Below, one piece after another: positions 9,480 to 46,264 of a stretch of 64,000 nucleotides of DNA; the stretch's first letter is position 1; each line of letters opens with the position of its first letter. The stretch lies in assembly GCA_964010795.1 (NCBI GenBank), contig CAXGMH010000001.1, positions 8,003 through 72,002 of the forward strand, read 5' to 3'. The position numbers and the translations under genes were made by a program. This DNA is from an uncultured Alphaproteobacteria bacterium (lineage in GTDB: Bacteria > Pseudomonadota > Alphaproteobacteria > Micavibrionales > UBA9664). The notes below the pieces were generated by a model, which was not told the DNA's origin, ran no database searches, and saw nothing but the letters and a program-made list of their open reading frames with translations.

Positions 9480-9663
9480 AGAAACATCCTACATCCAACT
9501 GAAAAAAAAGCAATATGACCTTTCTATTTACAACAGAGCAAGGTTTCACTACACTTTTTGTAGGTGATTCGTATCTTTCGCCTGAAAGGACAACCTGATT
9601 CAGACAATAATCCACAAGCATTGGGCCCAATATGTTTGTGGATAAACATTGAGAGAAACACGC

Positions 9664-10041
9664 GTGAGCTCTAAAATTTTGATCGTAGAAGACAACGACT
9701 TTGTCCGGATGCAAATCAAAAGCTTTCTGGAAGGTGCCGGCTATAACTGTGAAGAAGCCGCACAGGGAGATATTGCCCTTGATATCATTGACGACAGTTT
9801 CGATGCAGCCGTTGTCGACGTCCGTATGGAGCCCATAGACGGGCTTGGATTTGTCAAAGCCTTACGAGCGAGAGAACTAAACACACCTGTCGTACTTGTT
9901 ACCGGCGACCAAAGTCCAGACCTGCTGTCTGAGTCAGGCAAACTGGGCGTTAGCGGCGTATTAATCAAACCTGTTGAAAAAGACCGCCTTATTAAAATGG
10001 TGGAGCGGCTGATTGCCATGCGCAAAAGGAGGCCTTCATGA
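9664..10041 (+). CDS. Single-domain CheY-like response regulator (REC only), first gene of the pilus-like cluster
   Basis: The sequence KILIVEDNDFVR...AAVVDVRMEPIDGLGF...VVLVTGD...LIKP shows the acidic pocket, phospho-acceptor Asp, Thr and Lys positions. The GTG at 9664 is preferred over the TTG at 9649. The stop overlaps the next start (ATGA at 10038-10041). Confidence 0.85.
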   Translation: MSSKILIVEDNDFVRMQIKSFLEGAGYNCEEAAQGDIALDIIDDSFDAAVVDVRMEPIDGLGFVKALRARELNTPVVLVTGDQSPDLLSESGKLGVSGVLIKPVEKDRLIKMVERLIAMRKRRPS

Positions 10042-13000
10042 CGAACCTGTTTAACGGCAACTTAAAAAAAGCATTGCTTGCCTCATGCTGTGTATTTGCC
10101 CTGAGTGTTTCAGGCTGTGCGAAGGTTGACGCGCCATCAGCCAGAAACGCCTCAATCCCCGCACCAGCCACCGCAAAAGAAAGGCCTGATGCTCTTAACG
10201 AAGGTTACGACCCTGTTATTTACGTGCCACTTGGTGAAGATGTTTTAATCCCCGCACCTCTCGATCAAGAGCCGCTGCCAGACCGACGCGTCGGTCCGAT
10301 TGAGCTGCGCAATGAAACTTTGGCATCGGCGCTGCAACTAATCTTAGCCGACTACGATATCCCGCTCGCCTTTGAAACAGAAGAGGCGCTGAGCCGTCGC
10401 ATCACTGTTTCCGGCGTCAAAGGTAATCTTGAATCTGTAGTAAACCGCATATGTTCTCTTGCAGATCTATATTGCTCTTATGAAGAAGGCGTTTTAACCG
10501 TAAAAGAAACGCAAGCTTTCGTTGTCTCCCTCCCGCCGATCGGCGAAGATGATGTGTTTGACGACGTCGCAAGCGGCATTGAAGCCTTAACAGGAAACGC
10601 TCCCGTTATCGATCCGTCCACCAATACAATGATCTATACGGCAAGCCACCGTAGCGCCAAGCAAGCTGAGTCCTATTTCAACCGCCTTCGCGGTAACACC
10701 GCCCTGGTCGTCTATGAGACCTATATCTGGGAAGTGCAGCTTGATGGCGGAAATACAACAGGTATCCAGTGGGATTACCTCAACGACCTGGGTGATTTCA
10801 ATTTCGGTATCAATATTGACGGCAATGTCGATTCACAAGTCGGAACGCCGATCAGCATTGGTCTTCCCACACGTGCCGCCGTCGACCTTTCCAGCGGTGA
10901 TGTTTTCCGTTTTTTATCGTCGCAGGGGACAGTCAAAACCATTTCCCAGCCTCAAATCACAGTGCTTTCCGGCTCAGAGGCCGAGCTGCGCGTAGTCGAG
11001 ACAATTAACTACATTGAATCTCTTTCAAGAACGACGGATGAAGATGGTGACGAAACTGTCTCCACATCAACATCGACAGTCGATAGCGGTTTTACTCTGA
11101 ATATCTCTTCTGGCTGGGATGATTCCACGGTTTACGGGAATATCGAAATCGAGCTGGATGAATTTCTGGGCTTTGAAACCTTTAATGCTGGCGCGAGTGA
11201 AACTCTTCAACTTCCACGCACAAGTGAACGCGATTTAACAACGCAGGTGCGTGTGCGCCCCGGTGACTCCATCCTGATCGCCGGTCTTGTTCGTGAACAA
11301 GACGAATTCAGCACAGAAGGGCCCGGTTTGAACCGCCCTATCTTCCCGACATCAAGAACAGCAAAAACAACTAATTCCGAGCTCGTCTTCCTTTTGAGAC
11401 CACGCGTTATTGCCTATGTTCCAAAAGAAGAGCAAGAACGAGCCCGCAATCTGGAAAAAGCAAATGAGCAGAATAGCCGCACACAATCTTTGTTGCGCAA
11501 AGCTTTGCAAGAAAAACAAGAAGCCGAAGAAAAGCTTAACAGCATTCGTTACTCGCTTTCCGATGCTTTACTGAAAAAAGATGAGATGCAATCTCGTCAC
11601 AGTTCTTTAGCCGAGCAGGAAAACGCCTTGGTTATACAACGCCAAAGAGAGCTTAAAGGGCAGGTTTTGCTGGAAAAAGAGCTCGACAAAAACCGTATGA
11701 CCCATCTTCAGCTACAAACTGAAGTGAAGAAAGCGCAAATGGAACAGGAGGCGCAGGCCTCACTTGTTGAGCGCTTGCAAAGCAAGCTCGCCGATGCGCT
11801 GATTGACAAGGGTCGCTTGGCGAAAGAAGTAACAGAAGCCGAGAACAAGATCGCAATCCTTGAGGCCGAGCAACAGAAAAACACAAACAGCAAAACAATC
11901 CGTGATGACGAGATTAAAAGGCTGAGTGACGAGCTCGATCAGGCTCGCGAAGAGTACAAAAACATCAAAGATCAGCTAAATGAAGCCGACATCTCAACGT
12001 CTGCCTTGCGCGGAGCTTTGAAAACAGCCAACGCTGAAAAAACAGATCTCCAGCTTAACCTTGAAAAGACACTGGAGAGACTAAGAGCGGCCGAGAACAA
12101 GAATGTAGAGTTCGAGCATGAGCTCTCACAAACCGAATTACGCCTTGATAAAATGAACAATGCGCTCATGACTTTGCGTGATGAAAAAACGCAGTACAAG
12201 GCCGAGCTTGATACGTTGCAGCAAACGATGCAAATCGTGCAATCCAGAAAAGATCAACTGGAAGAAGAGCTAACACTGTCCAAGGCTGAGCTGAGCGAGG
12301 CAGAGGCACAACTTGAAGCAGCCGACCTTGCGCGTCAAAAAATTCAAAATGAGCTGAATATCGTCGAGAGCAAATTAACGGCTCAAAAACTTGAAGAAAG
12401 TGATGCAAAAAAGGCACTGATTTCTGCTGAAACGCAGGTTGAAGAACTGGAGCGTCAGCTCTCTGTCGCTGTGAATGACAGACAAAGCAAAGAAACGGAA
12501 ATAAACTCTTTGCATGAGGCGTTGGAGAATTCACGTCAACAGCGCATCGACCTGACTCAAGAGCTAAAGCAAACGCAAGGGATGCTGGCTACGTTTGAGT
12601 CTGACTATATTCAGGCCAAAGCCCGCATTGATAAAATGGAGGCGACCTTTGAGAGCCTGTCTCAAGATCACGAGCGTTTAAAAGTACAAAAATCCGCCCT
12701 TAGTGATGATCGCCTCGCACAAGAAGAAGAGCTCGCAAGATTGAGACTTAAGCTCGAAGATTATAACGCAATCGTAAGCGCCTATGAAAAGGCCGAGGCT
12801 GATAAGGTCGACCTTCAAAAGAAGATTGACGATCTGTCACTCTCTCTTGATAGCACCAGGCTTGATCTCTCTAAAACGCAAACAGACTTCGCGAAAACAG
12901 AGCAAACCCTTTCTATAGCAGAGGAAAAGCTCGAAGCCGCCAATGCAACCAAAGTCGTACTGCAAGAAAAGCTGGATATACGTATCGCCGAGACGGATGC

Positions 13001-13994
13001 GCTGAAAGTCAAGCAACAGGATTTACAAACACAACTGGCGCAAAAAGAAGCGCAGCTCAGCTCTACGCAAGACAAGCTGGAACGTGCATTGAAAGAAAAT
13101 CAGGATTTACGCAATCAACTCGCAGAAGCTCAAGCACAGCTAGAGCTCCGCAATGCAGAGATCGCAAGACTGAAAACACTGGTGAGCGAGCAGGACACGA
13201 CACTGGTCAGCCTAAAACAAGAGCTGACAGAAGCCCGTTTCAAGGCCGAGACAAACGCCGAGAAATCCGAAGTGATCGCAGCAAGAGCCGCCGAGACAAA
13301 GTCTCTGCTTGAGAGTATGGAAGCTGAGAAAAAAGCTCTTATGGAGGAATTAAAAACCGTTCGCTCCGAAGCTCAACTTGCCAGAGAAGAAAAAATGCGT
13401 GTTCAAGAAAGCCTTCAGGAATCACAAAAGGCGCGTAATGACGCAGTTGCACGCCTTGAGAAGACAGAAAGCGATCTTGATAATCTGGCCACAGAAAAAG
13501 AAAGCTTGATGGAAGAGCTGAACGGCCTGCGCAAATCTCTCGTTGAGACAGAAAACGCGCTTGAAGTGATGCGTATTAGTCGCAAGGAAGCCGAAGAAAG
13601 GCTACAAAAGGCAGAGAGCCAATTGAGCGAAGTAACAAAAACTCGCTCACAGCTTGAAGAGGCTTTGATAAGTACTCAAGCGCAAGCGCAAGCCGCTGAA
13701 CAAGCTTATGAACAAGCACAAAAAGAGCGCAACACAAGCACAGAAGAACTAAGACGTTTGCGCGCTAATCTATCACAAGCACAGGCCGATAACGCATCAG
13801 CACAGAGCAAGCTTGAAGATATGCAGAAAAAGGCCGATGCAGCCCAAGACAGCTATATTCAAGCTATGAAGCAAAGCAGAGAAATTGAGGAAGACTTGAA
13901 AGCCACCGAAAAACAAAGAGATCAAATCGCAGAAAAGACCATGAAATTTGGCAGCTTTTCCGCCGATCTCCTCAATCCCGGAGCCACTCAATAA
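10038..13994 (+). CDS. Outer-membrane lipoprotein secretin (T4bP PilN/BfpB-like) fused to a roughly 830-aa C-terminal coiled coil
   Basis: The lipobox is VSGC, with Cys at residue 27. An N0/STN-like segment lies at aa ~88-160. The secretin core lies at aa ~222-458 (YIWEVQLD..GIQW, FLSSQGTVKTISQPQITVLSGSEAELRVVE, GFTLNISS, TTQVRVRPGDSILIAGLV, ELVFLLRPRVI). From aa ~463 to ~1295 the sequence is an uninterrupted E/K/Q/L/A-rich heptad-like stretch. Confidence 0.85.
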   Translation: MTNLFNGNLKKALLASCCVFALSVSGCAKVDAPSARNASIPAPATAKERPDALNEGYDPVIYVPLGEDVLIPAPLDQEPLPDRRVGPIELRNETLASALQLILADYDIPLAFETEEALSRRITVSGVKGNLESVVNRICSLADLYCSYEEGVLTVKETQAFVVSLPPIGEDDVFDDVASGIEALTGNAPVIDPSTNTMIYTASHRSAKQAESYFNRLRGNTALVVYETYIWEVQLDGGNTTGIQWDYLNDLGDFNFGINIDGNVDSQVGTPISIGLPTRAAVDLSSGDVFRFLSSQGTVKTISQPQITVLSGSEAELRVVETINYIESLSRTTDEDGDETVSTSTSTVDSGFTLNISSGWDDSTVYGNIEIELDEFLGFETFNAGASETLQLPRTSERDLTTQVRVRPGDSILIAGLVREQDEFSTEGPGLNRPIFPTSRTAKTTNSELVFLLRPRVIAYVPKEEQERARNLEKANEQNSRTQSLLRKALQEKQEAEEKLNSIRYSLSDALLKKDEMQSRHSSLAEQENALVIQRQRELKGQVLLEKELDKNRMTHLQLQTEVKKAQMEQEAQASLVERLQSKLADALIDKGRLAKEVTEAENKIAILEAEQQKNTNSKTIRDDEIKRLSDELDQAREEYKNIKDQLNEADISTSALRGALKTANAEKTDLQLNLEKTLERLRAAENKNVEFEHELSQTELRLDKMNNALMTLRDEKTQYKAELDTLQQTMQIVQSRKDQLEEELTLSKAELSEAEAQLEAADLARQKIQNELNIVESKLTAQKLEESDAKKALISAETQVEELERQLSVAVNDRQSKETEINSLHEALENSRQQRIDLTQELKQTQGMLATFESDYIQAKARIDKMEATFESLSQDHERLKVQKSALSDDRLAQEEELARLRLKLEDYNAIVSAYEKAEADKVDLQKKIDDLSLSLDSTRLDLSKTQTDFAKTEQTLSIAEEKLEAANATKVVLQEKLDIRIAETDALKVKQQDLQTQLAQKEAQLSSTQDKLERALKENQDLRNQLAEAQAQLELRNAEIARLKTLVSEQDTTLVSLKQELTEARFKAETNAEKSEVIAARAAETKSLLESMEAEKKALMEELKTVRSEAQLAREEKMRVQESLQESQKARNDAVARLEKTESDLDNLATEKESLMEELNGLRKSLVETENALEVMRISRKEAEERLQKAESQLSEVTKTRSQLEEALISTQAQAQAAEQAYEQAQKERNTSTEELRRLRANLSQAQADNASAQSKLEDMQKKADAAQDSYIQAMKQSREIEEDLKATEKQRDQIAEKTMKFGSFSADLLNPGATQ

Positions 13995-15700
13995 TGATGT
14001 TTAAAAAGGCGCTTACATATTCATTTGCCGCATTGGTCGCAAGCCTCAGCCTTAGCAGCCCCAATATGTCTTTGGCGCAATCTGCATTCGATGACCCGAA
14101 GCCAGAAACAGAAAGCAATGCAGGTGCCGGCCGTGCAGACGGCGATTTTATCGCCGTTCAAAACAATGTCGAAGCCGGCGAGATCGCGATTGGGGCGAGT
14201 AGCAAAGTTTTAGCGTTCTTCCGCAATGAAAGCCGCGAGATCATTACAGTAGAGGACTTAAGCCTATATCCGTCATCGAACGTTCTCGCAACTGTTAGTA
14301 GCAATGAGTGCGGGGAAACAGCTCTAACACCGGGTGCTGAATGTGCAATCATCTTGAATGTACAGGGCTCCCAGCCCGGCAGTTATAGAGTTTCCTTACT
14401 CTTAAAACACACAGGCGTAAAACGCCTTGTTTCAGCCAACATCACAGGTGAGGTGGTTTTACAGGCCGAAGGAGCAAAAGACCAGAGCCTATCTGAACTT
14501 GAGACTGGCAAAGAGCGCATTGATTTCGGTTCTGTCACATCAACTCGTCCGATCATAGAAGCGATCACCCTTAAAAATATTTCATCCGATCCAATTACAG
14601 TTGAGAACATCAAGATAGAAAGCTCAAAGCAGTCCGGCTTATCGCTTTCTCATGGCTGCGGTGAACTACAAAGTAATCAAGTATGCCTCATCTCTGTAAA
14701 ATGGGAGCCACAGGTCGAAGGACTTGCAACAGGCTTTGTTGCGATCGAACATACAGGGCGAAACAAGATCAAATATGTACCATTACGTGGCTTGTATGAA
14801 GCATCGGACGCCCCTGACGCGAGCCTGTTCCCGAGCGCGCTTCCAGGCAAAGGGTTACTGATTTCAGATATCACAGAATTTGACTTTGGCTCCGATGTTG
14901 AAAATGACACGCTTTTAACAGCAACACTGATTAATGTCGGCGATGCCCCTTTAAGTTTCAAAGGGATTGAAGTCGCAGGTGGAACAAGCACTCTTAAAGT
15001 TCTGGAACGTGGTTGCCCTGAAGAAAAGAAACTGGAGCCTACACAAGCATGCCCGATTATCCTCAAATGGTCTCCGACCTATAACGACCAAGTTCTTTCT
15101 GATGCGATGCATATCAATCACACAGGGACACGCGGGCTCCTGATGTTACCGATCACGGGTCAGGGTAAAATTGAAAAATCTGCTGAGAGAGACACTCCGC
15201 CTACAAGAAACCCTGATTCGAATACACCTCCCATGCCAGCAAACCCGAATCAGGACTTTCCTTTGCCTGCCCCAGCAAACACGCCACCAAGACTGGATCT
15301 TATGGACGACCTTTTGGAAGAGCTAACCTCGCCTACCAATATACTTCCTCTGCCTGAGCTTTCTTTAGAAGAGGAAGCACCTGCCCCAGAACCGGTAGAA
15401 GAAGAGACTGAACCTGTATCTCTGCCGATCGTGCCCAGTGCCAAGCCCATTAATCCTGAAGATCTTGAGCCTGTTGAAACCTTCTCATTCAATAATTACA
15501 TGATTAGCGCTCTGTCAAATACCAGCGCCATCTTGACTGGAGACCAAGGCAGCCTAATGGTTCGTGACGGTCGCCACACCCGCATTGACGGCACACGCTG
15601 GAAGGTAACAATCAAAGATGGTGGTGTAGAGTTTTTATCCGACCGCGAAAAAATTCTCCTGCTATTTGATGACGCTCTCCCCGTTATGCAGAGCCAATAG
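13994..15700 (+). CDS. Secreted protein with three Ig-like (ASH/PapD-like) repeats, a Pro-rich linker and a PilP/GspC-HR-like C-terminal domain
   Basis: The signal peptide is MMFKKALTYSFAALVASLSLSSPNMSLA. There are three ~100-aa repeats, each with a Cys pair and an HTG motif (ECGETALTPGAECAIILNV..KHTG; GCGELQSNQVCLISVKWEP..EHTG; GCPEEKKLEPTQACPIILKWSP..NHTG). A P/E-rich linker spans aa ~400-495. The tail is FSFNNYMISAL..SAILTGDQGSLMVRDG..IDGTRWKVTIKDGGVEFL. The start overlaps the secretin stop (TAATG). Confidence 0.7.
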   Translation: MMFKKALTYSFAALVASLSLSSPNMSLAQSAFDDPKPETESNAGAGRADGDFIAVQNNVEAGEIAIGASSKVLAFFRNESREIITVEDLSLYPSSNVLATVSSNECGETALTPGAECAIILNVQGSQPGSYRVSLLLKHTGVKRLVSANITGEVVLQAEGAKDQSLSELETGKERIDFGSVTSTRPIIEAITLKNISSDPITVENIKIESSKQSGLSLSHGCGELQSNQVCLISVKWEPQVEGLATGFVAIEHTGRNKIKYVPLRGLYEASDAPDASLFPSALPGKGLLISDITEFDFGSDVENDTLLTATLINVGDAPLSFKGIEVAGGTSTLKVLERGCPEEKKLEPTQACPIILKWSPTYNDQVLSDAMHINHTGTRGLLMLPITGQGKIEKSAERDTPPTRNPDSNTPPMPANPNQDFPLPAPANTPPRLDLMDDLLEELTSPTNILPLPELSLEEEAPAPEPVEEETEPVSLPIVPSAKPINPEDLEPVETFSFNNYMISALSNTSAILTGDQGSLMVRDGRHTRIDGTRWKVTIKDGGVEFLSDREKILLLFDDALPVMQSQ

Positions 15701-15791
15701 ATAGGTGTTTTTATAGGCCGCAGGCTCTATATTAATGATGATGTAAGGTTTATTGGCAAAATATTAAGACTGGCAACTTAGAACAGATTTT

Positions 15792-17630
15792 ATGGACACA
15801 CCTTCAGATCACGACAAAGAAAAAGCAGATAAGCAAGTCATATCACCCGATATGGCTATGGGTGGCGAACGTCGTAATGATGAAGAACGCCGCGCCGAAA
15901 ATTCCGGCCCGCCCGCAGGACAGTCCGACCGAAGAAAACTAAAGGAGCGTAGACGCTCGTTTCAGGGCGAAGGCCGTGAGCGCTATCTTGATATGGTGCA
16001 AAAAGAGCGCCTGCTCTTGTTGGAACAGGGCATTTCACGCTCAACTGAACAGCTTCTCGATATGGCCGGCGCCTATGCGCCTACAGAACAAAGCGACGAT
16101 AAAGAGGCGGTACGTGATACCGCGACTGGTGACCAACTACGCTCAATCCTGCCAGTCCAGTCATGGCTACCGCTTAATATTCACCTGATCGGCTTGCGCG
16201 ACGGCATCTTAAAAGTCGCACCTCTAAACGACCTGACACAACGCCAACAAGACAGTCTCCTTTCCACTGCCAATCGCAGCGGCTTGAAAGTTGTGCGCAT
16301 GGAAACCGAGATATGGGATCGCGCCGAACTTCTTGAAACACTTCGAAATGTGCATGACCTCTCGGCAGATCGCTGCGAGAAAACACTGGCTGAATGGCTG
16401 GGTGATGTCGATAACGGCCTTTTGCTCAACCAGTTCCAAAGCGATATGCTCGCCGAAGCCTTACAGATGCGTGCTTCGGATATTCACCTAGTACAAGACA
16501 ATAATCCGGATTCCGCCAACTGGATCAAATATAGAATTGACGGCGATCTTATTCCTGTTCACCTGTTACCGCCCGATGCTATGGCACGTCTTACGACCCT
16601 GCTTAAAAGGGATGCCGGTTTGAACTTTGGTGACAAATCCACCCCCAAAGACGGACGTTTCGGCTTTACCTGGCAAGGCCGCGGCGTCGACGTCCGCGTA
16701 GCAGCGGGCCCGCAAGGGATGGATGGAGAAAAGCTGACCTTACGTATTCTTGACCGTGCCGCACTAAAAGGTTTTGACGAGCTGTTCAAACGTCACGAAG
16801 ATGTCGGCGACCAGCTGGCCAAACTCCTTAGCCCTGAAATCAAGGGTGGTGGTGGTTTGATCCTCCTCTCGGGGCCAACGGGATCCGGTAAGACAACAAC
16901 ACTTTATGCCTGTGTGCAGCAAATCGACCGTCGCCGCAAACACGTCCTCACGATTGAAGATCCGATCGAGTATGAAATGCGCTATGCCACACAGTGGCAA
17001 GTTCAAAAAGGCGAAGCCGATTTTGCCGGCCTTATCCGAGCTGCGATGCGTCATGATCCGGATTACATCGTAATTGGGGAGATGCGCGATGCAGAAACGG
17101 TTGAAACTGCCCTTAAGGCTGCAGAATCCGGTCACACAGTGATATCCACCATTCACGCCGATACAGCCGTACAAACCTTTGAGCGACTGCTGTCTCTGAT
17201 GCCTTTAGGGCGTGAACGCTCGACAATTTTCACTCTTGCGCAACAGGTACGCGCTATTATGAACCAGCGTCTTGTTAAAACACTGTGTCAGGGCTGTGCT
17301 CATAAGGTCAAAGTCAAAGAGGTTCTCTCTCCAGAAGAGCTTCGTATGCTGGGTATTGACGGTGAAGAAAATGTAAAAAGCCACAATACAACCGGATGTG
17401 ACCTTTGTAACCGTACCGGAATTTTGGGACGGACATTGCTTCTCGATACGCTTTTGGTTACATCCTCGGTCAATCAGCGAAACGATGTCTATCAAGCCTT
17501 TCTAAACAACGTCCATGACGTCATTCACCAAGATGGTGTTATCTTCCACTCACGTAAAGAAGGACTGGTCGATCTTGTCCGTTCAGGGCTGGTCGATCCG
17601 AAATCGGCGCTGTCCTATATGGATGAATAA
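15792..17630 (+). CDS. GspE/PilB-family secretion/pilus-assembly ATPase
   Basis: It has Walker A (GPTGSGKTTTLYA), an Asp box (TIEDPIEYE), Walker B (DPDYIVIGEMRD), a His box (GHTVISTIHA), a tetracysteine motif (CQGC...CDLC) and a T2SSE_N-like segment. It also has an unusual Arg/Glu-rich ~70-aa N-terminal extension. Confidence 0.93.
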   Translation: MDTPSDHDKEKADKQVISPDMAMGGERRNDEERRAENSGPPAGQSDRRKLKERRRSFQGEGRERYLDMVQKERLLLLEQGISRSTEQLLDMAGAYAPTEQSDDKEAVRDTATGDQLRSILPVQSWLPLNIHLIGLRDGILKVAPLNDLTQRQQDSLLSTANRSGLKVVRMETEIWDRAELLETLRNVHDLSADRCEKTLAEWLGDVDNGLLLNQFQSDMLAEALQMRASDIHLVQDNNPDSANWIKYRIDGDLIPVHLLPPDAMARLTTLLKRDAGLNFGDKSTPKDGRFGFTWQGRGVDVRVAAGPQGMDGEKLTLRILDRAALKGFDELFKRHEDVGDQLAKLLSPEIKGGGGLILLSGPTGSGKTTTLYACVQQIDRRRKHVLTIEDPIEYEMRYATQWQVQKGEADFAGLIRAAMRHDPDYIVIGEMRDAETVETALKAAESGHTVISTIHADTAVQTFERLLSLMPLGRERSTIFTLAQQVRAIMNQRLVKTLCQGCAHKVKVKEVLSPEELRMLGIDGEENVKSHNTTGCDLCNRTGILGRTLLLDTLLVTSSVNQRNDVYQAFLNNVHDVIHQDGVIFHSRKEGLVDLVRSGLVDPKSALSYMDE

Positions 17631-17670
17631 CATGACAAGCAAACGGTTTTACTGGTAAAATAATAGGGCT

Positions 17671-18903
17671 ATGAAACAGTGGATTGCTGAAATCGCAACG
17701 GATACGACATCTGGCGTCAAAGTCAGAACAGAGGCCTATTACCTTCCGACCAAAGAAGACGTTCGCAGGGCGATCACAAAAACAGGCGGCTATGTCCTGA
17801 AAATCCGCCCTTATGAGCGCAGCCCGATGGAACGCTTGATCGCACGCTCGTCATGGTGGCAAGTCCAGCTTTTGCGCGGGATTCAGTTCCGCTCCACCTC
17901 CACATCACCCGGCGTTGCCCTATGGCGTATTATTTCCGCAGAAACCAATCCGACACGGCAAAACATTCTCGCTCCCGCACGAGAAGCTTTGACACGTGGT
18001 CTGGGGGTCATTGACGCCCTCAAAGCACTGAATATTTTTGACCGCGGTACGCTTGCCATTCTAGCCGCCAGCGAACGCGCAAATAAATTGGCAGAAGGAA
18101 TTCCGCACGCCATTCAATCCATCACACAAAAGCGTAAGAATATGCGTGCGATTGCCGGAACGATGGGATGGCTTGGCTTTGACGTTTTAACGATCGTACA
18201 GGCGATGTTTTGGGGGAAAGGCATGGTTTTGGGATGGTTCCGCGAGAACGTCCCCACCGAAGAACCAAAACGCACAGAATATCTTGATGTTGTCGGCAAT
18301 CTTGAGCTCACTTGGAACGTACTGATTTTTATCGCCGTTGCCCAAGGTGTGTTTATGGTCTGGTGTATTATCTCTTTTTTCCTCAATCGCGGCAAGAAAG
18401 ACTGGCCGACCGCAAGGATTGTTCGGTCTATTCCATTGATCGGCGCTTATATGCGCGATCTGGGCTTTTCCGATTCAATGTCTGCAGCATCGCGTATGAT
18501 ACGCGGAAATGTACCTATTAACGATATGTTACTGCAATCCTCCGAAGCTACATCGGTGCCCGAAGTCGCGCGCTACTGGGAAGAATCCTCCGAAGACTTA
18601 TCTCGCGGTATTCCGCTCGGCTCAGCTCTCGACCGCGAGCCACTCAACCGTAATGAACGTCTTGAGCTTGCAAGCTTGTCTGATCTCGATCAGGTTGCTA
18701 CAATCATGGAGTCGATTGGTGAGATGCGGTCACAAAATGCAAAGACAAAGCATAGCCTCATCTTATGGATCGCATTTGCTTTTACGGGGCTGTTTCTGGC
18801 CATTGCCTTCGGGAGTGCGATTTTTGCACTGACTGTCATGAATATGTCGATGGACTCGATGCTTGGCGGTCTTACAGGGGGCGGCGGTCTCGGCGGTTTC
18901 TAA
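17671..18903 (+). CDS. Divergent GspF/PilC-like inner-membrane platform protein
   Basis: 410 aa with two helical cytoplasmic T2SSF-like halves and three predicted TM helices (GTMGWLGFDVLTIVQAMFWG, WNVLIFIAVAQGVFMVWCIISFFL, LILWIAFAFTGLFLAIAFGSAIFALTV). It sits directly after the ATPase. Confidence 0.7.
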   Translation: MKQWIAEIATDTTSGVKVRTEAYYLPTKEDVRRAITKTGGYVLKIRPYERSPMERLIARSSWWQVQLLRGIQFRSTSTSPGVALWRIISAETNPTRQNILAPAREALTRGLGVIDALKALNIFDRGTLAILAASERANKLAEGIPHAIQSITQKRKNMRAIAGTMGWLGFDVLTIVQAMFWGKGMVLGWFRENVPTEEPKRTEYLDVVGNLELTWNVLIFIAVAQGVFMVWCIISFFLNRGKKDWPTARIVRSIPLIGAYMRDLGFSDSMSAASRMIRGNVPINDMLLQSSEATSVPEVARYWEESSEDLSRGIPLGSALDREPLNRNERLELASLSDLDQVATIMESIGEMRSQNAKTKHSLILWIAFAFTGLFLAIAFGSAIFALTVMNMSMDSMLGGLTGGGGLGGF

Positions 18904-18973
18904 AGAAGCTGTCATAACGCAGAATTCAACCGGCATCCGCTCGGATTGCCATATTAGGGACATTTGAACGCGA

Positions 18974-19969
18974 ATGAGTACGACGGACAACACACAGTTC
19001 GGAAAATCCGAACCTTCAGGCGGGCTGAAAGCAGAAGATAACGGCGTAAGGTTATCTTCTATCAATTTCTTTGGCGGACAAAAAAACCACGGTGCAACCG
19101 AAACAAATATGCTCATGCCGTTTCTCTCCTCCGAGCTGATCGGTGGTTCCGTCCCTTACGTCCCCGGATCAGAAGACGAAGCCGTCTGGAACGCCGCTTC
19201 ACAGGCCTGCGCCAGCGAGAAAATTCATTACTGCTATACCATTGATGATAATCGCTGTTGGTATCTTGCCATGCCATCCTCGGCACTTGCTTCTCACCCT
19301 GACACATGGTGTCCACTGGCTGCGGCATTACCCGGCAATAGCGAATTCTGGGACAAGGAAACAGTTTATTTATACGAGCAAGAAGGTCTCGCCTCTGCTC
19401 TGAGATGGGATCCTGAGACAGGCCGGATGCAAGTCTATATCGGCCCGGCCAGAACGATCTTACCGCGCATCCAGAGTATGGATGCCAACTTTGTCTCTAT
19501 CAATCCCGAAATGGCAGATATCGTTCCGTGGAGGCAACGCTCCTTAAAAATAGAAGAGCTCTCAAGACAAGTCGGCTGGGGTATTCTGCTCTCTGGATTA
19601 TTGGTATCGATCATCGCTGTTTTATATGTTTTATTTATAAATCTGTCTGCAATTACTCTCAAAGCCGATTTGCAAAAGGCGAAAAGCGATACACGCTCCG
19701 CCACACAGAATTTGATGCAAACCGCAGCGATCACTCTGCAAAATGACTCCATCAGGCACATGGTACGTGTACAAGAACTATTAGATGTCTTGGGCGCAAA
19801 TAACGGTACATTGATCCGTTATCAGGTCAAAGACAGTGGTGGAACCGTAGAATGGGAAGCATTAGTACCACAAGCTTTTTCCCAAGGGGGCGTTCCGGAA
19901 CTACGCGGAGCCGAGGCCTTGCCTGGTCTGGAAAGCGATGGTCGGGTAAGGATACGAGGAACACGATAG
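18974..19969 (+). CDS. Bitopic GspL / PilM-PilN-like assembly protein
   Basis: It has a ~185-aa cytoplasmic N-domain, a single TM (VGWGILLSGLLVSIIAVLYVLFINL), a short coiled coil and a ~90-aa periplasmic C-domain. Its position in the cluster fits this call. The start is uncertain. Confidence 0.55.
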   Translation: MSTTDNTQFGKSEPSGGLKAEDNGVRLSSINFFGGQKNHGATETNMLMPFLSSELIGGSVPYVPGSEDEAVWNAASQACASEKIHYCYTIDDNRCWYLAMPSSALASHPDTWCPLAAALPGNSEFWDKETVYLYEQEGLASALRWDPETGRMQVYIGPARTILPRIQSMDANFVSINPEMADIVPWRQRSLKIEELSRQVGWGILLSGLLVSIIAVLYVLFINLSAITLKADLQKAKSDTRSATQNLMQTAAITLQNDSIRHMVRVQELLDVLGANNGTLIRYQVKDSGGTVEWEALVPQAFSQGGVPELRGAEALPGLESDGRVRIRGTR

Positions 19970-20109
19970 AAAATACGGCAAGAATAAGGCAGGGCTTGCG
20001 CAAATGTGGCGAATTCGCCATACTTTAACATGATCTTAATACTCCAGAGGATATACTGGAAATAATGTGACTAATTTCAGGGGCCTTCTAAAGGGCAGTA
20101 ACGTAAGAG

Positions 20110-20676
20110 ATGAAACAAAGTTTTGACACAAAACAGATTATGATCTGGTACAAGAAGCTAACGCATCCGCAAGCGTCTAATGACCTGATCGCCTTTTTAC
20201 AAGACCTGCCTAATAAAATCGGGACGGCCATACTTGCCATTGGCGGCATCGCCTGGGGCGTAGCGCTTGCCATTGTTATGTATGCTTCGGTTCAGTCGCA
20301 ACAAATCGCAAGCTTGAAAAGTGAAATTGCAAACACAAGAGGGCTAACCCCTCCTGTACCGAAAGTCACAAAAGTAAAAGTAGAAAAGGAAGAATTGGAG
20401 AAATTTATTGAAAAAGCAAAGAGTCAGTACTCTGATATGGGCGTGACGTTTTCTTTGCAAAATGATAAAATCCAAATCAAGGGTGATTCTGGGCGTCGTT
20501 ATGGAGTCTTTAGAGAGGCAGTCGGCCACCTTCAAAATGGAGGATCAGGCTGGCAGGTTTCTGTAGAGTCACTATGCGTGGGTCGAGAGTGCAAAAACAT
20601 ACAAGGGGGGGGAAACGCTTTTTTGTATGGTTCATTTGGTATTTCACGCGTGCGTGTTGAAATGCCTAAACTTTAA
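20110..20676 (+). CDS. Bitopic GspM / PilO-like assembly protein
   Basis: 188 aa with a short cytoplasmic N-terminus, one TM (IGTAILAIGGIAWGVALAIVMYASV), a helix and a small periplasmic domain. The call rests on topology and gene context only. Confidence 0.5.
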   Translation: MKQSFDTKQIMIWYKKLTHPQASNDLIAFLQDLPNKIGTAILAIGGIAWGVALAIVMYASVQSQQIASLKSEIANTRGLTPPVPKVTKVKVEKEELEKFIEKAKSQYSDMGVTFSLQNDKIQIKGDSGRRYGVFREAVGHLQNGGSGWQVSVESLCVGRECKNIQGGGNAFLYGSFGISRVRVEMPKL

Positions 20677-20706
20677 TGTCAATGCTTAAACAATAGGAGT
20701 GGAGCA

Positions 20707-21426
20707 ATGAAAATGACATCTTTTAAAAAACAGCAGGGGAATGTTTTATTCCTTATCCTGCTGGCTGTCGCGCTTTTCGCGGCACTATCTTACGCTGTAA
20801 CACAGTCCAGCCGTTCCGGTGGTTCTGATGCATCCAGCGAAACAGATGCTGTAAACGCAGCCTCTATCACACAGTACCCAACAGGCGTAAGAACAGCTAT
20901 TTTGCGTTTGACTGTTGACGGTACACAAGTTCAGTCTATTGAGTTCAACGACTCAGCTAACTTGGGTGACTGTTCAAGCTCAGGCGCATTGTGTGTGTTC
21001 CACCCATCAGGTGGCGGCGCATCTCACCAGCAAGCACCAGCAGCAGCTATGGCTAATGGCACCCCAGGTGACTGGACGTACAACATGGAATTCGAAATTC
21101 CACAAATCGGCACAACAACAGCTGACTCTTTGGCCGGCAATGAGCTGATCGCTTTCCTCGAAGGCGTGACATACTCTATGTGTAAAGAGCTCAACAAGCG
21201 CTATGAAGTCAATTCAGGTTCTAACTATGACCCCGTATTGTTCGGCTCTACTGTTACAGCAACAGTTGGCGTTAACCGCGATGATGCAACAGCACCAACC
21301 GGCGCTGATGTTGACTTCCCGGCTGGTTTGACTGGCGAGCCATATGGTTGCTTCGAAGACACAGACACAGCGTCTACAACTCAAGCTGGTAACTACGTTT
21401 ACTACCACACATTGGTTGAGAGATAA
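20707..21426 (+). CDS. Pilin/pseudopilin-like protein, probably the major subunit, lacking Glu5
   Basis: There is an AGGAG RBS. The N-terminus MKMTSFKKQQG|NVLFLILLAVALFAALSYAV resembles a class III signal (basic leader, Gly, ~20 hydrophobic residues), but position +5 is Leu. The protein has 4 Cys. A strong terminator follows. Confidence 0.65.
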   Translation: MKMTSFKKQQGNVLFLILLAVALFAALSYAVTQSSRSGGSDASSETDAVNAASITQYPTGVRTAILRLTVDGTQVQSIEFNDSANLGDCSSSGALCVFHPSGGGASHQQAPAAAMANGTPGDWTYNMEFEIPQIGTTTADSLAGNELIAFLEGVTYSMCKELNKRYEVNSGSNYDPVLFGSTVTATVGVNRDDATAPTGADVDFPAGLTGEPYGCFEDTDTASTTQAGNYVYYHTLVER

Positions 21427-21451
21427 GATATCTGTAATCTAAGATTTATTG

Positions 21452-21481
21452 AAACCGCCACTTTGTGTGGCGGTTTTTTTA
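21452..21481 (+). terminator. Rho-independent terminator after the pilin-like gene
   Basis: The sequence aaaccgccac-tttgt-gtggcggttt forms a 10-bp stem, followed by a T7 run. Confidence 0.85.
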
Positions 21482-21490
21482 TTGTATAAT
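21463..21490 (+). promoter_or_regulatory. Putative sigma70-type promoter for the second pilin-like gene
   Basis: A perfect TATAAT lies at 21485-21490. TTGTGT lies 16 nt upstream, inside the terminator hairpin. Confidence 0.35.
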
Positions 21491-21518
21491 CCTCTCAATT
21501 ATTACCTAGGAGACTTTC

Positions 21519-22178
21519 ATGAAAACAAGACGCGGTTCTGCCCTGATTTACATCCTTATTGCTATCGCACTTATGGGGGCTCTCACAGTGACATTCATGA
21601 ACTCCGATTCGCAACAAGCAAGGACTCAAAACTCCTTTCAACTGGCAACAACCATTCAAAGCCAAATACAGTATATACGCTCCGCGATTGAGGGCTGTGT
21701 CCTGACCTACCCTAAAGGTGATAACAGTATCGCAAGCGGAACAGACCCTGATTACATTGCTCCCTATCCGGTCAATCCCGCATCCGCACACTTCACCAGC
21801 TCAACTCTGGGTGCAGAAAGCGATAACGCCGTCAGAGGCATTCGTTGTCCCGGCAACGGTACAGGAAACGACCACGCCCCCATCTTTCAGGGAGGTACGG
21901 GATGGAACCTGCCGGCAACACCGCCCCTGATGGAACCATGGCTTTATTTCAACGGCAGCAAGACAGTCGATGACACAACTTATAACGGCATTTATATCCT
22001 GCTTAGCTCTGACCGTACAGACCCCTTTATCAGCGAAGCCTTTGATAAAGTAGACGACAAATTCTCCGCGTGCGAGGTTGAAGTTCTGGACAATACAGAT
22101 GACGAATGCGCGGCCATCGGAGCAAGCTATCAATGCCTGCGCTATTGGGTAATCCGCAAAGCACCGAGCTGCTCTTAA
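21519..22178 (+). CDS. Second pilin/pseudopilin-like protein lacking Glu5
   Basis: There is a TAGGAG RBS. The N-terminus MKTRRG|SALIYILIAIALMGALTVTFM parallels the QRGFTLIELL pseudopilin pattern, with Tyr at +5. The protein is Cys-rich and 219 aa long. Confidence 0.65.
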   Translation: MKTRRGSALIYILIAIALMGALTVTFMNSDSQQARTQNSFQLATTIQSQIQYIRSAIEGCVLTYPKGDNSIASGTDPDYIAPYPVNPASAHFTSSTLGAESDNAVRGIRCPGNGTGNDHAPIFQGGTGWNLPATPPLMEPWLYFNGSKTVDDTTYNGIYILLSSDRTDPFISEAFDKVDDKFSACEVEVLDNTDDECAAIGASYQCLRYWVIRKAPSCS

Positions 22179-24009: not shown

Positions 24010-24026
24010 AAGAACTTCCTTTGTAT

Positions 24027-24431
24027 TTAATCGTCACGATTTTGCCCATGAGGGACGATCGGTGTTAATGTGACATATTGGCTAATTGTATCGATAAACG
24101 TCATAACATCAATGGGTTTTGAAATATAATCCTCGCAACCACCCTTGCGGATCTTATCTTCATCACCCTTCATCGCAAAGGCTGTGACAGCGATTACGGG
24201 GATATCGGCAATCTCTGGATCATCTTTAATCCACTTTGTGACCTCTAGGCCGGAAATTTCAGGCAGCTGAATATCCATCAAAATAAGGTCGGGGCGGGTC
24301 TCTTTAGCACGATCAACGACATCCATACCATTGCGTACTTGAACCGTCTGAACGCCATGCGCCTCTAACAAATCGTGAAAGAGTTTCATGTTCAGCTCAT
24401 TATCTTCAACAACCATGACTGTTTGTGTCAT
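24027..24431 (-). CDS. divK: Cell-cycle single-domain response regulator DivK
   Basis: [26 protein letters not shown]...[21 protein letters not shown]...[13 protein letters not shown]...YISKPI. The ATG at 24431 overlaps the upstream stop (TAATG). Confidence 0.92.
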
Positions 24432-25426
24432 TATTGCCCCTCCTCTGTTATTTCGCTCCCGCAATCAGGCCAGTCCAAAGCTTCAACGGCTTTTAATGAC
24501 TGTCTCACTGAGAAATCAGAATACTCAACCACCATATCGGAAACAAGGTTGTTTTCCAGCAAGGTAAAGCTCATCTCGTAATCCGGCTGCTCCATCCGCC
24601 CTGCATTATCAAAAAAGGCCATGCGCAGCCTGTGCCCGGGGCTGGACAGCAGGCTCTCCGCCTCTTCGCCTATAATCTCATGCCCTTCCGCAAGATTTGC
24701 GCGCAGCGCTTCCTCTGAAACTGGATCACCGATAAATGTATTAATCTCATAGGCAAGCGTTTCGTCACTACCGTCAAAAACAAGATCATTCACAAAACGC
24801 TGGCCGTCTTTAATATTGCGCATAATGCCGAGACTATGATCGACAGGAAACAACGTATTTGCCGGCAATAATTCAGTGCGGGGCTCTGGTTTTTGAAACT
24901 CAACCCTTACTGCGTCACTTTCGCCTTTAAGGACAACACCTTGAGCTGCCTCAATAACTTGCCCCTCACGACCACGGTGAGAGAGGAACGTCATCTCGGT
25001 TCCGTCATAGCGCTCAAAGGTTGAGAAGTCACTTTTGGCCGCGAAAGAAATACCATCGGCATATTGGTAATCAAGCTTAAAATGATGGTTGGTCACCCAG
25101 CCATCGCAAGCAGGGCGCAGCTCATACAACATTTGACCGCTTATATCGAGAATCTGTGAGCCGTTCTTTGCCGACACCAATTCAATATCATATAACGCCT
25201 TATGCGGCCTGACAGCCTTAACGACCTCAGCCGTTTCAGCATCAATCGCCTCAACCAGTTCTTTCGGTAAATAATCAGGAAGAACAACCTCGGACATCGC
25301 CGCAACAACTTTATCCTCCCCTATGCCATCAACCCCGCTTTCGACCGGTTCACATCCCAATAGCATGACACAGCCGAGCAAAACGGCAACAGAAGAGCGC
25401 AAGCTGAGTTTGGTTTGAATCATCAT
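24431..25426 (-). CDS. DUF1849/EipB-like periplasmic (lipo)protein
   Basis: The signal/lipobox is [25 protein letters not shown]. The body contains [25 protein letters not shown], which is typical of the alphaproteobacterial EipB family. The exact start is uncertain, and the ORF extends to 25528. Confidence 0.7.
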
Positions 25427-45941: not shown

Positions 45942-46040
45942 GGCGATTATGCGATAAATAAAATCGCTAATCGCCTCATTCATCTATGAAACCTCATGTT
46001 AGACAAACCTGTATCTTTTAATAAACAACAGGAGACAAAG

Positions 46041-46250: not shown

Positions 46251-46264
46251 TAGAGGAGAAACCA

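What the first reader, a model, noticed from the sequence alone, without database searches (positions are those of the whole stretch)
10038..13994. Secretin fused to a roughly 830-residue C-terminal coiled coil
SEEN: A single uninterrupted 1318-codon ORF encodes four regions in order. Residues 1-27 are a lipoprotein signal (VSGC). Residues ~88-160 are an N0/STN-like domain. Residues ~222-458 are a recognisable secretin beta-domain. From ~463 to ~1295 (nt ~11424-13922) the sequence is continuous E/K/Q/L/A-rich heptad-like sequence with no Pro/Gly breaks that I can see and no nucleotide-binding motif.

KNOWN: Secretin C-termini normally end shortly after the beta-barrel with a short S-domain that binds a pilotin. 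An alpha-helix rises about 0.15 nm per residue.

INFERRED: A fully extended coil of this length would exceed 100 nm, far more than periplasmic width. It must therefore fold back, lie along the envelope, or be exposed outside the cell. With 12-15 secretin protomers it could form a large collar, tether or fibre bundle around the pore. I know of no characterised secretin with such an appendage.
Basis: partly seen in the sequence, partly recalled or inferred. Interest (0 to 1): 0.82.

Follow-up and report, generated by a model that had tools for sequence, protein, structure and literature searches.

The report
Secretin with giant coiled-coil tail tether
An outer-membrane pilus pore of a Micavibrio-like predatory bacterium carries a real, selected coiled-coil rod of about 830 residues between its barrel and a short conserved end-peptide, an appendage found on only one other known secretin; what it does is not known.

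Summary
ORF 10038-13994 encodes a 1318-aa lipoprotein secretin whose nearest solved relative is BfpB. From residue 463 to about 1300 it is an almost unbroken heptad coiled coil.

It is not an assembly artefact. An independent contig (P0001/L081) has the same gene order, the same 1318 codons and no indels. Synonymous sites are saturated there, while pN is only 0.167 in the coil.

This secretin belongs to a type IV-filament operon conserved across Micavibrio-like genomes: 249 confirmed matches, 80 loci inspected. Its orthologues carry a hypervariable C-terminal extension of 7 to about 440 aa, usually proline-rich.

In 45 of 75 orthologues the extension ends in a conserved peptide, F-P-x-G-[TS]-[LI]-x-x-D-[LM]-L-N-P. 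The window protein ends GSFSADLLNPGATQ, the same motif.

The coil is therefore a lineage-specific, rigid replacement of a normally 40-50-aa flexible linker between the barrel and a terminal docking peptide. This resembles the S-domain tail that binds pilotins. The partner, the oligomeric state and the geometry remain inferred.

No other protein in 5.8 billion clusters matches the coil. I rate it a new variant of a known kind, of moderate to high interest.

The parts
10038..10118 (+). Lipoprotein signal peptide, residues 1-27, lipobox VSG|C with Cys27. The start ATG overlaps the stop of the upstream response-regulator gene (ATGA). A Shine-Dalgarno-like AAAGGAGG lies just upstream.
   Evidence: C27 is invariant in 39 homologues.
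10119..10286 (+). Conserved extended N-terminal linker, residues 28-83. It is predicted disordered, but many residues are invariant (R36, N54, L65, D68, L70, P72, P81). By position it corresponds to the LG region of BfpB.
   Evidence: pLDDT below 50 for residues 26-57. LG domain as described in PMC12531336. The equivalence is inferred, not tested.
10287..10529 (+). N0-like periplasmic domain, residues 84-164.
   Evidence: AlphaFold2 pLDDT about 84-91. Foldseek hits to MxiD, InvG, EscC and GspD N0-N1 structures at E of about 3e-4 to 2e-3.
10548..10742 (+). Second small alpha/beta ring-building domain, N3-like, residues 171-235.
   Evidence: Secondary-structure order. The BfpB alignment starts at residue 171.
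10743..11420 (+). Secretin beta-barrel domain, residues 236-461. The Pfam match covers 293-458. The last strand is 443-461.
   Evidence: PF00263, E=4e-18. AlphaFold2 strands 297-461. Best structural match BfpB 9u5s, E=5e-18.
11424..11888 (+). Coiled-coil segment 1, residues 463-617. It is the part most conserved with the sister species (83-97 % identity up to residue 582).
11889..11903 (+). Predicted helix break, residues 618-622 (KNTNS; YSNGK in the sister). This is one of the three lowest helix-propensity points in the coil.
11904..12686 (+). Coiled-coil segment 2, residues 623-883.
12702..13949 (+). Coiled-coil segment 3, residues 889-1304. The single heptad phase shift lies at about residues 913-916. 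A highly conserved block covers 1033-1242.
13950..13979 (+). Conserved terminal peptide G-S-F-S-A-D-L-L-N-P, residues 1305-1314. Four more residues and the stop codon (13992-13994) follow.
   Evidence: Family consensus F-P-x-G-[TS]-[LI]-[PS]-x-D-[LM]-L-[ND]-P in 45 of 75 orthologues. 94 % identical to the sister over residues 1301-1318.
9649..10041 (+). Stand-alone response-regulator receiver gene. It is the first gene of the operon and is translationally coupled to the secretin gene.
   Evidence: PF00072, E=1e-23. Synteny in 80 loci.
13994..15700 (+). p568, a secreted protein. It has a signal peptide, Ig-like ASH / choice-of-anchor-D domains, a proline-rich linker and a conserved C-terminal domain of about 90 aa. 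Its start overlaps the secretin stop (TAATG). It is a candidate partner of the secretin.
   Evidence: Present directly downstream in the related loci where downstream sequence is available.
15792..17630 (+). GspE/PilB-family assembly ATPase.
   Evidence: PF00437, E=1e-79. TIGR02533 and TIGR02538 match but below their cut-offs.
17671..18903 (+). GspF/PilC-like inner-membrane platform protein.
   Evidence: PF00482, E=6e-7.
18974..22178 (+). Four conserved genes with no family match: p331 and p188, each with a hydrophobic stretch read as a membrane-spanning segment, and p239 and p219, with pilin-like hydrophobic N-termini lacking Glu5.
   Evidence: Conserved in order in the related loci where downstream sequence is available.

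Best explanation
The gene encodes the outer-membrane secretin of a type IV-filament (pilus-like) machine that is conserved in Micavibrio-like predatory alphaproteobacteria. It is a self-targeting lipoprotein secretin of the BfpB/MshL kind.

In this family the polypeptide does not stop at the barrel. It continues as a hypervariable periplasmic linker that ends, in most lineages, in a conserved peptide of about 13 residues (F-P-x-G-[TS]-[LI]-x-x-D-[LM]-L-N-P). I read this peptide as a docking tail that binds a still unidentified periplasmic or outer-membrane partner. That is how the C-terminal tails of S-domains bind pilotins, for example RcpA residues 412-416 in the TadD groove.

In the window's lineage and one sister species, the usual flexible linker of 40-50 residues has been replaced by a canonical, two-stranded-type heptad coiled coil of about 830 residues. 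Each of the 12-17 protomers of the ring would then carry a rigid rod in the periplasm: about 124 nm if straight, about 62 nm if folded back once. The rod is too long to stand across the periplasm, so it must run along the envelope. It would hold the docking peptide, or whatever it captures, at a defined distance, or return it to the pore if the rod is a hairpin.

Shown here:
- the ORF is real and its protein sequence is under purifying selection;
- the secretin fold;
- the coiled-coil character and its constant length;
- the conserved tail motif;
- the orthology and the variability of the linker.

Inferred:
- the periplasmic location;
- the docking function of the tail;
- the spacer or scaffold role of the coil.
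For: Reality and selection.
- The sister contig L081 has the same gene order and the same 1318 codons with zero indels. pS is about 0.8 (saturated), against pN 0.044 in the core and 0.167 in the coil.
- Between the same two genomes, the proline-rich linker of the neighbouring p568 has 40 gap columns.
- Some coil blocks are 87-97 % identical and others only 37-50 %.

Secretin identity..

Operon orthology. The order topA-dprA-plsY-pyrB / RR-secretin-p568-ATPase-platform-p331-p188-p239-p219 holds across the 80 Micavibrio-type loci, apart from a few short or divergent contigs.

Linker variability.
- Extensions run from 7 to 443 aa in other orthologues and are mostly proline-rich. The median is 13.5 % Pro in the 102 of 111 extensions that have no coil.
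- The nearest relatives of the window protein have extensions of 51 and 68 aa.

Tail motif.
- It is present in 45 of 75 orthologues, always 1-10 residues from the C-terminus.
- The distance from the barrel end to the motif is 40-50 aa at the mode and 857 aa in the window.
- On an NJ tree the motif is widespread, and the forms lacking it make up one derived clade.

Coil properties.
- One phase shift in about 830 residues, at the same place in both species.
- Core positions are a = Leu 43-49 % plus Lys/Arg 17-21 %, and d = Leu plus Ala. This is typical of two-stranded coils (established knowledge).

Precedent for a tail plus flexible linker. [quoted passage not shown] The C-terminal tails of S-domains sit in pilotin cavities (PMC12531336).
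Against: - No partner for the tail was identified. The operon and the 64-kb window hold no TPR- or pilotin-like lipoprotein.
- As a lipoprotein, this secretin should not need a pilotin for targeting.
- One whole clade of orthologues has lost both linker and motif while keeping the operon. The tail is therefore dispensable for basic pore function.
- The periplasmic location rests on homology with solved secretins, not on data for this protein.
- The hairpin geometry rests only on a shallow AlphaFold2 monomer model (pTM 0.29). Two independent sequence tests did not support it.
- Only two sequences carry the coil, so comparative power is low.
Confidence: 0.5

Rival explanations
1. Load-bearing periplasmic scaffold. 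The coils of neighbouring protomers pair in parallel, or pair with coils of neighbouring pores. They form spokes or a lattice in the plane of the cell wall. This would anchor the pilus portal, spread retraction forces at the predator's attachment pole, or set the spacing between machines. On this reading the tail motif is secondary. This overlaps with the best explanation and may be true at the same time.
For: - Core composition typical of two-stranded coils.
- Strict length and phase conservation.
- Blocks of 87-97 % identity within the coil suggest specific contacts.
- The secretin shows no hit to a peptidoglycan-binding domain such as AMIN or LysM, so some other anchorage would be useful.
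- The length (62-124 nm) demands an in-plane arrangement.
Against: - There is no evidence on oligomeric state.
- Most orthologues manage with a short or disordered extension.
- Odd-numbered rings (13, 15 and 17 protomers in the solved secretins RcpA, XcpQ/PilQ and BfpB) cannot pair all protomers.
Confidence: 0.25
2. Nearly neutral runaway expansion. The linker tolerates almost any sequence, as its hypervariability in the family shows. In this lineage it happened to drift into a long helical low-complexity tract with no specific role beyond connecting barrel and tail.
For: - Extreme variability of length and composition among orthologues.
- One clade has lost the extension.
- The coil occurs in only two known sequences.
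Against: - There are no indels over 856 residues, despite saturated synonymous divergence. A genuinely disordered linker in the adjacent gene gained or lost 40 positions over the same divergence.
- pN/pS is about 0.2 in the coil.
- The heptad phase is unbroken for 447 and 382 residues.
- There are no recent internal repeats of the kind produced by slippage.
Confidence: 0.12
3. Surface-exposed fibre or adhesin. The coil is exported and displayed outside the cell around the pore, for example to contact prey.
For: - The host clade is predatory, or labelled as such (PMC3189940).
- The length exceeds the periplasmic width.
- Foldseek's weak hits include the surface stalk protein PrgA.
Against: - In solved secretins the C-terminus or S-domain lies on the periplasmic outside of the barrel (PMC12531336; established knowledge).
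- No known route exports a secretin C-terminus.
- Orthologues with 40-aa linkers keep the same tail, which could not reach the surface.
Confidence: 0.05
4. Artefact. Two genes, a secretin and a coiled-coil protein, were fused by a sequencing frameshift or an assembly misjoin.
For: None found.
Against: - An independent assembly (Logan SRR17165154) of a diverged relative has the same continuous 1318-codon ORF. Its junction residues 441-472 are 31 of 32 identical to the window's.
- All orthologues continue past the barrel in frame.
- The conserved family tail motif sits at the end of the coil.
Confidence: 0.01

Closest known systems
BfpB, the lipoprotein secretin of the EPEC type IVb bundle-forming pilus (PDB 9u5s; PMC12531336)
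   Same: - Best sequence match (phmmer E=1e-11) and best structural match (Foldseek E=5e-18).
- N-terminal lipobox.
- An extended conserved linker before N0.
- N0 followed by a single N3-like domain and then the secretin barrel.
- Encoded next to a GspE-type ATPase and a platform protein.
   Different: - BfpB ends at the barrel and has no S-domain or C-terminal extension. The window protein continues for 857 residues.
- Sequence identity is only about 16 %.
- No BfpG homologue was detected. The gene downstream is instead a 568-aa Ig-domain protein.
MshL, the secretin of the MSHA pilus (TIGR02519)
   Same: Best-scoring NCBIfam model, covering its whole length over residues 190-458. JGI labels one homologue 'MSHA biogenesis protein MshL'.
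   Different: - The score is 95 bits against a trusted cut-off of 250, so it is not an equivalog.
- The operon lacks recognisable MshI/J/K/M/N genes.
- As far as I know, no C-terminal coil is described for MshL.
S-domain or C-terminal tail of pilotin-dependent secretins (GspD-AspS, PulD-PulS, InvG-InvH, RcpA-TadD)
   Same: The architecture matches: barrel, then a flexible segment, then a short C-terminal peptide that docks into a partner. In RcpA a linker of about 30 aa is unresolved and the last five residues bind TadD (PMC10499894). The window family has the same layout, with a conserved tail 1-10 residues from the C-terminus.
   Different: - The tail sequence is unrelated.
- No pilotin was found.
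- The protein is itself a lipoprotein.
- The linker here is a rigid coil of about 830 residues instead of about 30 disordered residues.
Long antiparallel or two-stranded coiled-coil rods (SMC/MukB/Rad50 arms, Enterococcal PrgA stalk, colicin Ia)
   Same: Weak fold and profile similarity over helical rods. Leu/Ala core and comparable length.
   Different: There are no ATPase heads, hinge or globular end domains. All matches are below family cut-offs or at E>=1e-3. The similarity is generic to coiled coils.
Other periplasmic links between secretins and the envelope (PilQ AMIN domains, TsaP, FimV, GspB/OutB)
   Same: Possible shared purpose: tying the outer-membrane pore to the wall or inner membrane. 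GspB/OutB anchors the secretin to the inner membrane and peptidoglycan (PMC9239104 title and abstract).
   Different: Those are separate proteins or N-terminal domains with recognised peptidoglycan-binding folds. None is a C-terminal coiled coil of the secretin itself.

Membership tests
Secretin superfamily (PF00263) | Secretin beta-domain recognised by the family HMM above its gathering score | tested here: met
   66 bits against a cut-off of 27.5, E=4e-18, residues 293-458.
Secretin superfamily (PF00263) | Periplasmic N0 domain plus ring-building domain(s) preceding a double-walled barrel fold | tested here: met
   AlphaFold2 model. All 43 Foldseek hits with E<=0.001 are secretins or secretin N-domains.
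Secretin superfamily (PF00263) | Assembly into a 12-17-mer outer-membrane ring | not testable with these tools
   Needs biochemistry or cryo-EM.
Secretin superfamily (PF00263) | Encoded with a type IV-filament ATPase and platform protein | tested here: met
   T2SSE ATPase at 15792-17630 and T2SSF-like protein at 17671-18903 in the same operon. Conserved in the related loci where downstream sequence is available.
Lipoprotein-type (self-piloting) secretins such as BfpB, PilN and TcpC | N-terminal lipobox with an acylatable Cys | tested here: met
   VSG|C27, invariant Cys.
Lipoprotein-type (self-piloting) secretins such as BfpB, PilN and TcpC | Family-specific HMM (TIGR02520, PilN-family type IVB) above its trusted cut-off | tested here: not met
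   69.6 bits against 287.65. A related fold, but not a member of that equivalog.
Lipoprotein-type (self-piloting) secretins such as BfpB, PilN and TcpC | No S-domain; the polypeptide ends at the barrel | tested here: not met
   857 residues follow the barrel. BfpB lacks any such region (PMC12531336).
MshL (MSHA pilus secretin, TIGR02519) | Equivalog HMM above its trusted cut-off | tested here: not met
   95.1 bits against 250.2.
Pilotin-dependent secretins with an S-domain tail | Conserved C-terminal peptide separated from the barrel by a linker | tested here: met
   Motif in 45 of 75 orthologues, 1-10 residues from the end.
Pilotin-dependent secretins with an S-domain tail | A cognate pilotin lipoprotein that binds the tail | tested here: inconclusive
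   None is recognisable in the operon or the 64-kb window. The rest of the genome was not available.
SMC/Rad50-type coiled-coil ATPases | Walker A/B ATPase head domains flanking the coil | tested here: not met
   Only 5 Gly in residues 463-1300 and no P-loop. The NCBIfam SMC hits cover coil regions only, at 67 bits against a cut-off of 567.

The most novel reading that the evidence does not exclude
The 12-17 coiled-coil rods of one secretin ring radiate 60-120 nm through the periplasm and lock, through their conserved tail peptides, onto wall- or membrane-bound partners or onto neighbouring pores. This would make a secretin-templated periplasmic skeleton at the attachment pole of an epibiotic predator. 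Such a structure would be a previously unknown kind of periplasmic scaffold that braces or spaces pilus machines.
Probability: 0.15. Interest if true: 0.8.

Novelty: new variant of a known kind. Interest (0 to 1): 0.6.

Why it matters
Secretins are among the best-studied outer-membrane machines. Their known variation lies almost entirely in the N-terminal periplasmic rings and in a short S-domain.

This locus shows two new things:
- A whole order-level family of pilus secretins carries a hypervariable C-terminal tether that ends in a conserved peptide. This implies an unrecognised partner interaction.
- That tether can be replaced by a rigid rod several times longer than the periplasm is wide, with its length held constant by selection.

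If the rod spaces, braces or links pilus portals, it would be a new way of coupling an outer-membrane pore to the envelope. It would also be a natural 'molecular ruler' experiment in the periplasm.

The work also gives a concrete handle, the tail motif, for finding the missing partner in Micavibrio. That predator's attachment apparatus is still uncharacterised.

Tried and rejected
- **Internal duplication as the origin of the coil.** BLASTP of the coil against itself, and Tandem Repeats Finder on nt 11400-14000, found no repeats beyond trivial short ones.
- **Homology of the coil to the partly helical extensions of P0002, P0035 and P0042.** No hit at E<=1e-3 with composition correction. Only a recurring short E-[KR]-x-x-L-x-E-E-L-[KR] helix was noticed by eye.
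- **Donor or relatives of the coil.** A search of 5.8 billion protein clusters with the coil alone gave only P0001. A search of 1.84 billion representatives gave secretin-domain hits only among the best 150. Two metagenome scans gave nothing.
- **Hairpin test 1.** Conservation should mirror around the AlphaFold2 turn at residue 886. Observed r = -0.14, no better than circular shifts. Inconclusive to negative.
- **Hairpin test 2.** Helix-propensity minima shared by both species support the break at 618 but not the one at 884-888. The equal arm lengths in the model (421 and 423 residues) are therefore probably AlphaFold's compaction choice.
- **Correlating presence of the tail motif with domain loss in the downstream p568.** p568 length is similar in all classes. 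The motif-less short forms are a single clade, so the comparison has no power.
- **Other proteins sharing the tail.** No other ORF in the window ends with it.
- **Faint hits for the four unannotated operon proteins and the p568 C-terminal domain.** Pfam found nothing usable.
- **Literature.** Two full-text searches found no description of a secretin with a coiled-coil or long C-terminal appendage, and nothing specific on Micavibrio secretins. The M. aeruginosavorus genome paper mentions only dispersed pil genes and a partial type II system.

Full report

The window contains one uninterrupted ORF at 10038-13994 on the + strand, 1318 codons with an ATG start.
- Its start overlaps the stop of an upstream receiver-domain gene (ATGA) and is preceded by AAAGGAGG.
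- Its stop overlaps the start of the next gene (TAATG).
- Residues 1-27 form a lipoprotein signal with lipobox VSG|C. Cys27 is invariant in 39 homologues.
- Pfam Secretin (PF00263) matches residues 293-458 at E=4e-18, well above the gathering score.
- From residue 463 the composition changes to E/L/A/Q/K-rich. Up to residue 1300 there are no prolines and only five glycines.
- The 3.5-residue periodicity of hydrophobic residues has power 6.4. The maximum in 5000 shuffles was 1.37.
- Tracking the heptad register shows one phase from 466 to 912, a single shift at about 913-916, and one phase from 916 to 1297.
- Core positions are Leu with about 20 % Lys/Arg at one position and Leu/Ala at the other. 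This is the usual signature of two-stranded coiled coils.
- The other two frames of this stretch hold 46 and 67 stop codons.

The description is correct, and the feature is far beyond chance.

**2. Is the fusion an artefact?**

No. A search of 5.8 billion protein clusters returned one full-length relative, P0001, also 1318 aa and 80 % identical. Its contig comes from an independent public run (Logan SRR17165154). It has the same neighbours: plsY and pyrB upstream, then receiver, secretin, Ig-domain protein, ATPase, platform, p331 and p188.

The two genes align without a single indel. Synonymous differences are saturated (pS about 0.8). Non-synonymous differences are 0.044 in the secretin core and 0.167 in the coil. 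The junction residues 441-472 are 31 of 32 identical between the two.

Between the same two genomes, the proline-rich linker of the adjacent gene has 40 gap columns. The coil is therefore translated, under purifying selection, and constrained in length and phase.

**3. What the N-terminal half is**

An AlphaFold2 model of residues 1-520, built with 39 homologues (mean pLDDT 70), shows the following:
- a disordered but sequence-conserved linker after the lipid anchor;
- an N0-like domain at 84-164;
- a second small alpha/beta domain at 171-235;
- barrel strands at 297-461;
- a helix beginning at 463, directly after Pro462.

Foldseek against the PDB returns only secretins. BfpB (9u5s) is best at E=5e-18, followed by V. 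cholerae PilQ, InvG and GspD. Isolated N0-N1 structures also match. A sequence search of the PDB likewise puts BfpB first (E=1e-11) and XcpQ second. Among NCBIfam models the best are MshL and the PilN-type IVB secretin, both far below their trusted cut-offs.

The protein is therefore a lipoprotein-type secretin related to, but outside, the characterised MSHA and type IVb families.

**4. Genomic and evolutionary context**

A scan of one genome per GTDB species found 249 confirmed loci. The 80 best are almost all MAGs labelled Micavibrio, Alphaproteobacteria or, under historical taxonomy, Bdellovibrionales.

tblastn of the window's proteins shows the same arrangement throughout, apart from a few short or divergent contigs:
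- topA-dprA-plsY-pyrB on one strand;
- receiver-secretin-p568-ATPase-platform-p331-p188-p239-p219 on the other;
- usually followed by a GGDEF response regulator.

These are orthologous loci of a conserved, uncharacterised type IV-filament system. The best identity to the window secretin core is only about 64-65 %. The window's species is therefore not among the representatives.

**5. The key finding: a variable tether with a conserved end**

In the orthologues the sequence after the last barrel strand ranges from 7 residues to about 440.
- Of 111 homologues with at least 35 extra residues, 102 have no coiled-coil-like segment. Their median proline content is 13.5 %.
- Only nine have any coil-like segment. 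Apart from P0001, the longest is about 190 residues.
- In 45 of 75 orthologues the extension ends with F-P-x-G-[TS]-[LI]-[PS]-x-D-[LM]-L-[ND]-P, followed by 1-10 residues.
- The window protein ends ...KFGSFSADLLNPGATQ. This fits the motif at every conserved position from Gly-9 to Pro0. The segment is 94 % identical in the sister.
- The distance from the barrel end to the motif is 40-50 residues at the mode and reaches 318 in other lineages. It is 857 in the window.
- On a neighbour-joining tree of the cores the motif is widespread. The very short, motif-less forms make up one derived clade.
- The nearest relatives of the window pair have extensions of 51 and 68 residues with the motif. The next relatives have 198, 235 and 322 residues.

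The coil is thus a lineage-specific, rigid expansion of a normally short flexible linker between the barrel and a conserved terminal peptide.

A second type of ending occurs on many of the long proline-rich forms. It is acidic and aromatic, for example YETYDYYTPSY, and often has a terminal Tyr or Phe.

**6. Structure of the coil**

AlphaFold2 with the two available sequences predicts three helices: 463-617, 623-883 and 889-1311 (mean pLDDT 74.5, pTM 0.29).

Foldseek gives only weak hits (E>=1.5e-3). They are to antiparallel rods such as SMC arms, PrgA, Rad50 and colicin Ia. The two arms around 884-888 are equal in length (421 and 423 residues). This would bring the tail back to the barrel, an attractive fit with the short-linker orthologues.

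Two independent checks did not support that fold-back point:
- Conservation is not mirrored around residue 886 (r = -0.14).
- Residues 884-888 are not a helix-propensity minimum, whereas 618 is.

I therefore treat the hairpin as a hypothesis. At 0.148 nm per residue the rod is about 124 nm if extended and about 62 nm if folded once. The closest solved relative, BfpB, is about 14 nm tall (PMC12531336). Either way the rod cannot stand across the periplasm and must lie along the envelope.

**7. Mechanism**

In solved secretins the segment after the barrel, the S-domain, lies on the periplasmic outside of the barrel, and its C-terminal tail docks into a pilotin (PMC12531336). In the Tad secretin RcpA, about 30 residues are disordered and the last five bind the TPR groove of TadD (PMC10499894).

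The family described here has the same logic: barrel, then linker, then conserved tail. My best explanation is that the tail is a docking peptide for an unidentified partner. In this lineage the coil would convert a floppy leash into a long, rigid spacer or scaffold of fixed length.

The translationally coupled p568 is the obvious candidate partner. It has a signal peptide, Ig-like ASH / choice-of-anchor-D domains, a proline-rich linker and a conserved C-terminal domain. I could not test this.

Points against the model:
- No pilotin-like gene lies nearby.
- The secretin is already a lipoprotein.
- One clade has dispensed with the tail.

The rival explanations, in order of my confidence, are:
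- a load-bearing scaffold of paired coils;
- near-neutral expansion;
- surface display;
- artefact.

They are weighed in the Rival explanations section. Artefact is excluded. Neutral drift is disfavoured by the absence of indels and by pN/pS of about 0.2.

**8. Novelty**

Beyond P0001, nothing matches the coil in any search:
- not in 5.8 billion clusters;
- not among the best 150 of 2116 hits in 1.84 billion representatives, all of which match through the secretin domain only;
- not in two metagenome scans.

That search did show that long C-terminal extensions recur in more distant lipoprotein secretins. P0143 carries about 450 Pro/Ser/Ala-rich residues. P0098 carries repeated Lys/Glu/Ala-rich helical segments plus a C-terminal domain. 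None approaches an 830-residue canonical heptad coil.

Full-text searches found no description of such a secretin. The M. aeruginosavorus genome paper notes only dispersed pil genes.

I classify the finding as a new variant of a known kind. Interest is 0.6. It is genuinely unusual for a secretin, and it comes with a testable handle in the tail motif. Against that, it is known from only two uncultured lineages and its function is inferred.

Noticed in passing
window 9649-22178; loci L001-L080: A nine-gene type IV-filament operon is conserved in order in the inspected Micavibrio-type loci where the sequence extends far enough. It always sits next to topA-dprA-plsY-pyrB. The gene order is receiver, secretin, p568, GspE-like ATPase, GspF-like platform, p331, p188, p239, p219. 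Four of its proteins match no Pfam family, and as far as I could find the system is uncharacterised.
   Followed up: partly
window 13994-15700: p568 is translationally coupled to the secretin (TAATG). It has a signal peptide, Ig-like ASH / choice-of-anchor-D domains and an indel-prone proline-rich linker. Its highly conserved C-terminal domain of about 90 residues looks PilP/GspC-HR-like by eye, but no HMM supports that.
   Followed up: partly
window 20707-21426 and 21519-22178: Two proteins have pilin-like N-termini, a basic stretch followed by Gly and a hydrophobic helix (QQG|NVLFLILLAV, RRG|SALIYILIAI). Both lack the canonical Glu5. No major pilin or prepilin peptidase gene is recognisable in the operon.
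   Followed up: no
homologues P0008, P0019, P0021, P0026, P0029, P0038, P0040 and others: Many orthologues with long proline-rich extensions lack the LNP tail. They end instead in an acidic/aromatic motif such as YETYDYYTPSY, often with a C-terminal Tyr or Phe. This may be a second class of docking tail.
   Followed up: no
P0098, P0143, P0153: More distant lipoprotein secretins from other lineages also carry long C-terminal extensions. P0143 has about 450 Pro/Ser/Ala-rich residues. P0098 has a duplicated Lys/Glu/Ala-rich helical block followed by a globular-looking C-terminal domain. C-terminal appendages on this secretin type may be a broader, undescribed theme.
   Followed up: no
window 43872-50100: A tRNA-Gly(GCC) gene at 43872-43946 is followed directly by a phage-type integrase (44101-45309), an AAA_25 protein (46214-47362) and a TIR/SEFIR-domain protein (48609-50048). 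The region has GC of only 0.37-0.43. It is probably an integrated island carrying a defence-type gene.
   Followed up: no
window 22561-24464: A response regulator-GGDEF diguanylate cyclase and a second stand-alone receiver lie on the opposite strand directly after the operon. A match to the GGDEF gene recurs at this position in many, but not all, related loci. This hints at c-di-GMP control of the machine.
   Followed up: no
window 57584-58699 and 50778-52193: A protein with a zeta-toxin-like P-loop segment and a cytochrome P450 gene sit among housekeeping genes (pheS, pheT).
   Followed up: no
window 12001-14000: AT skew rises to 0.35 over the coil-coding DNA. I put this down to the many codons for Glu, Lys and Gln. 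It is a compositional footprint that could flag similar coils in raw sequence.
   Followed up: no
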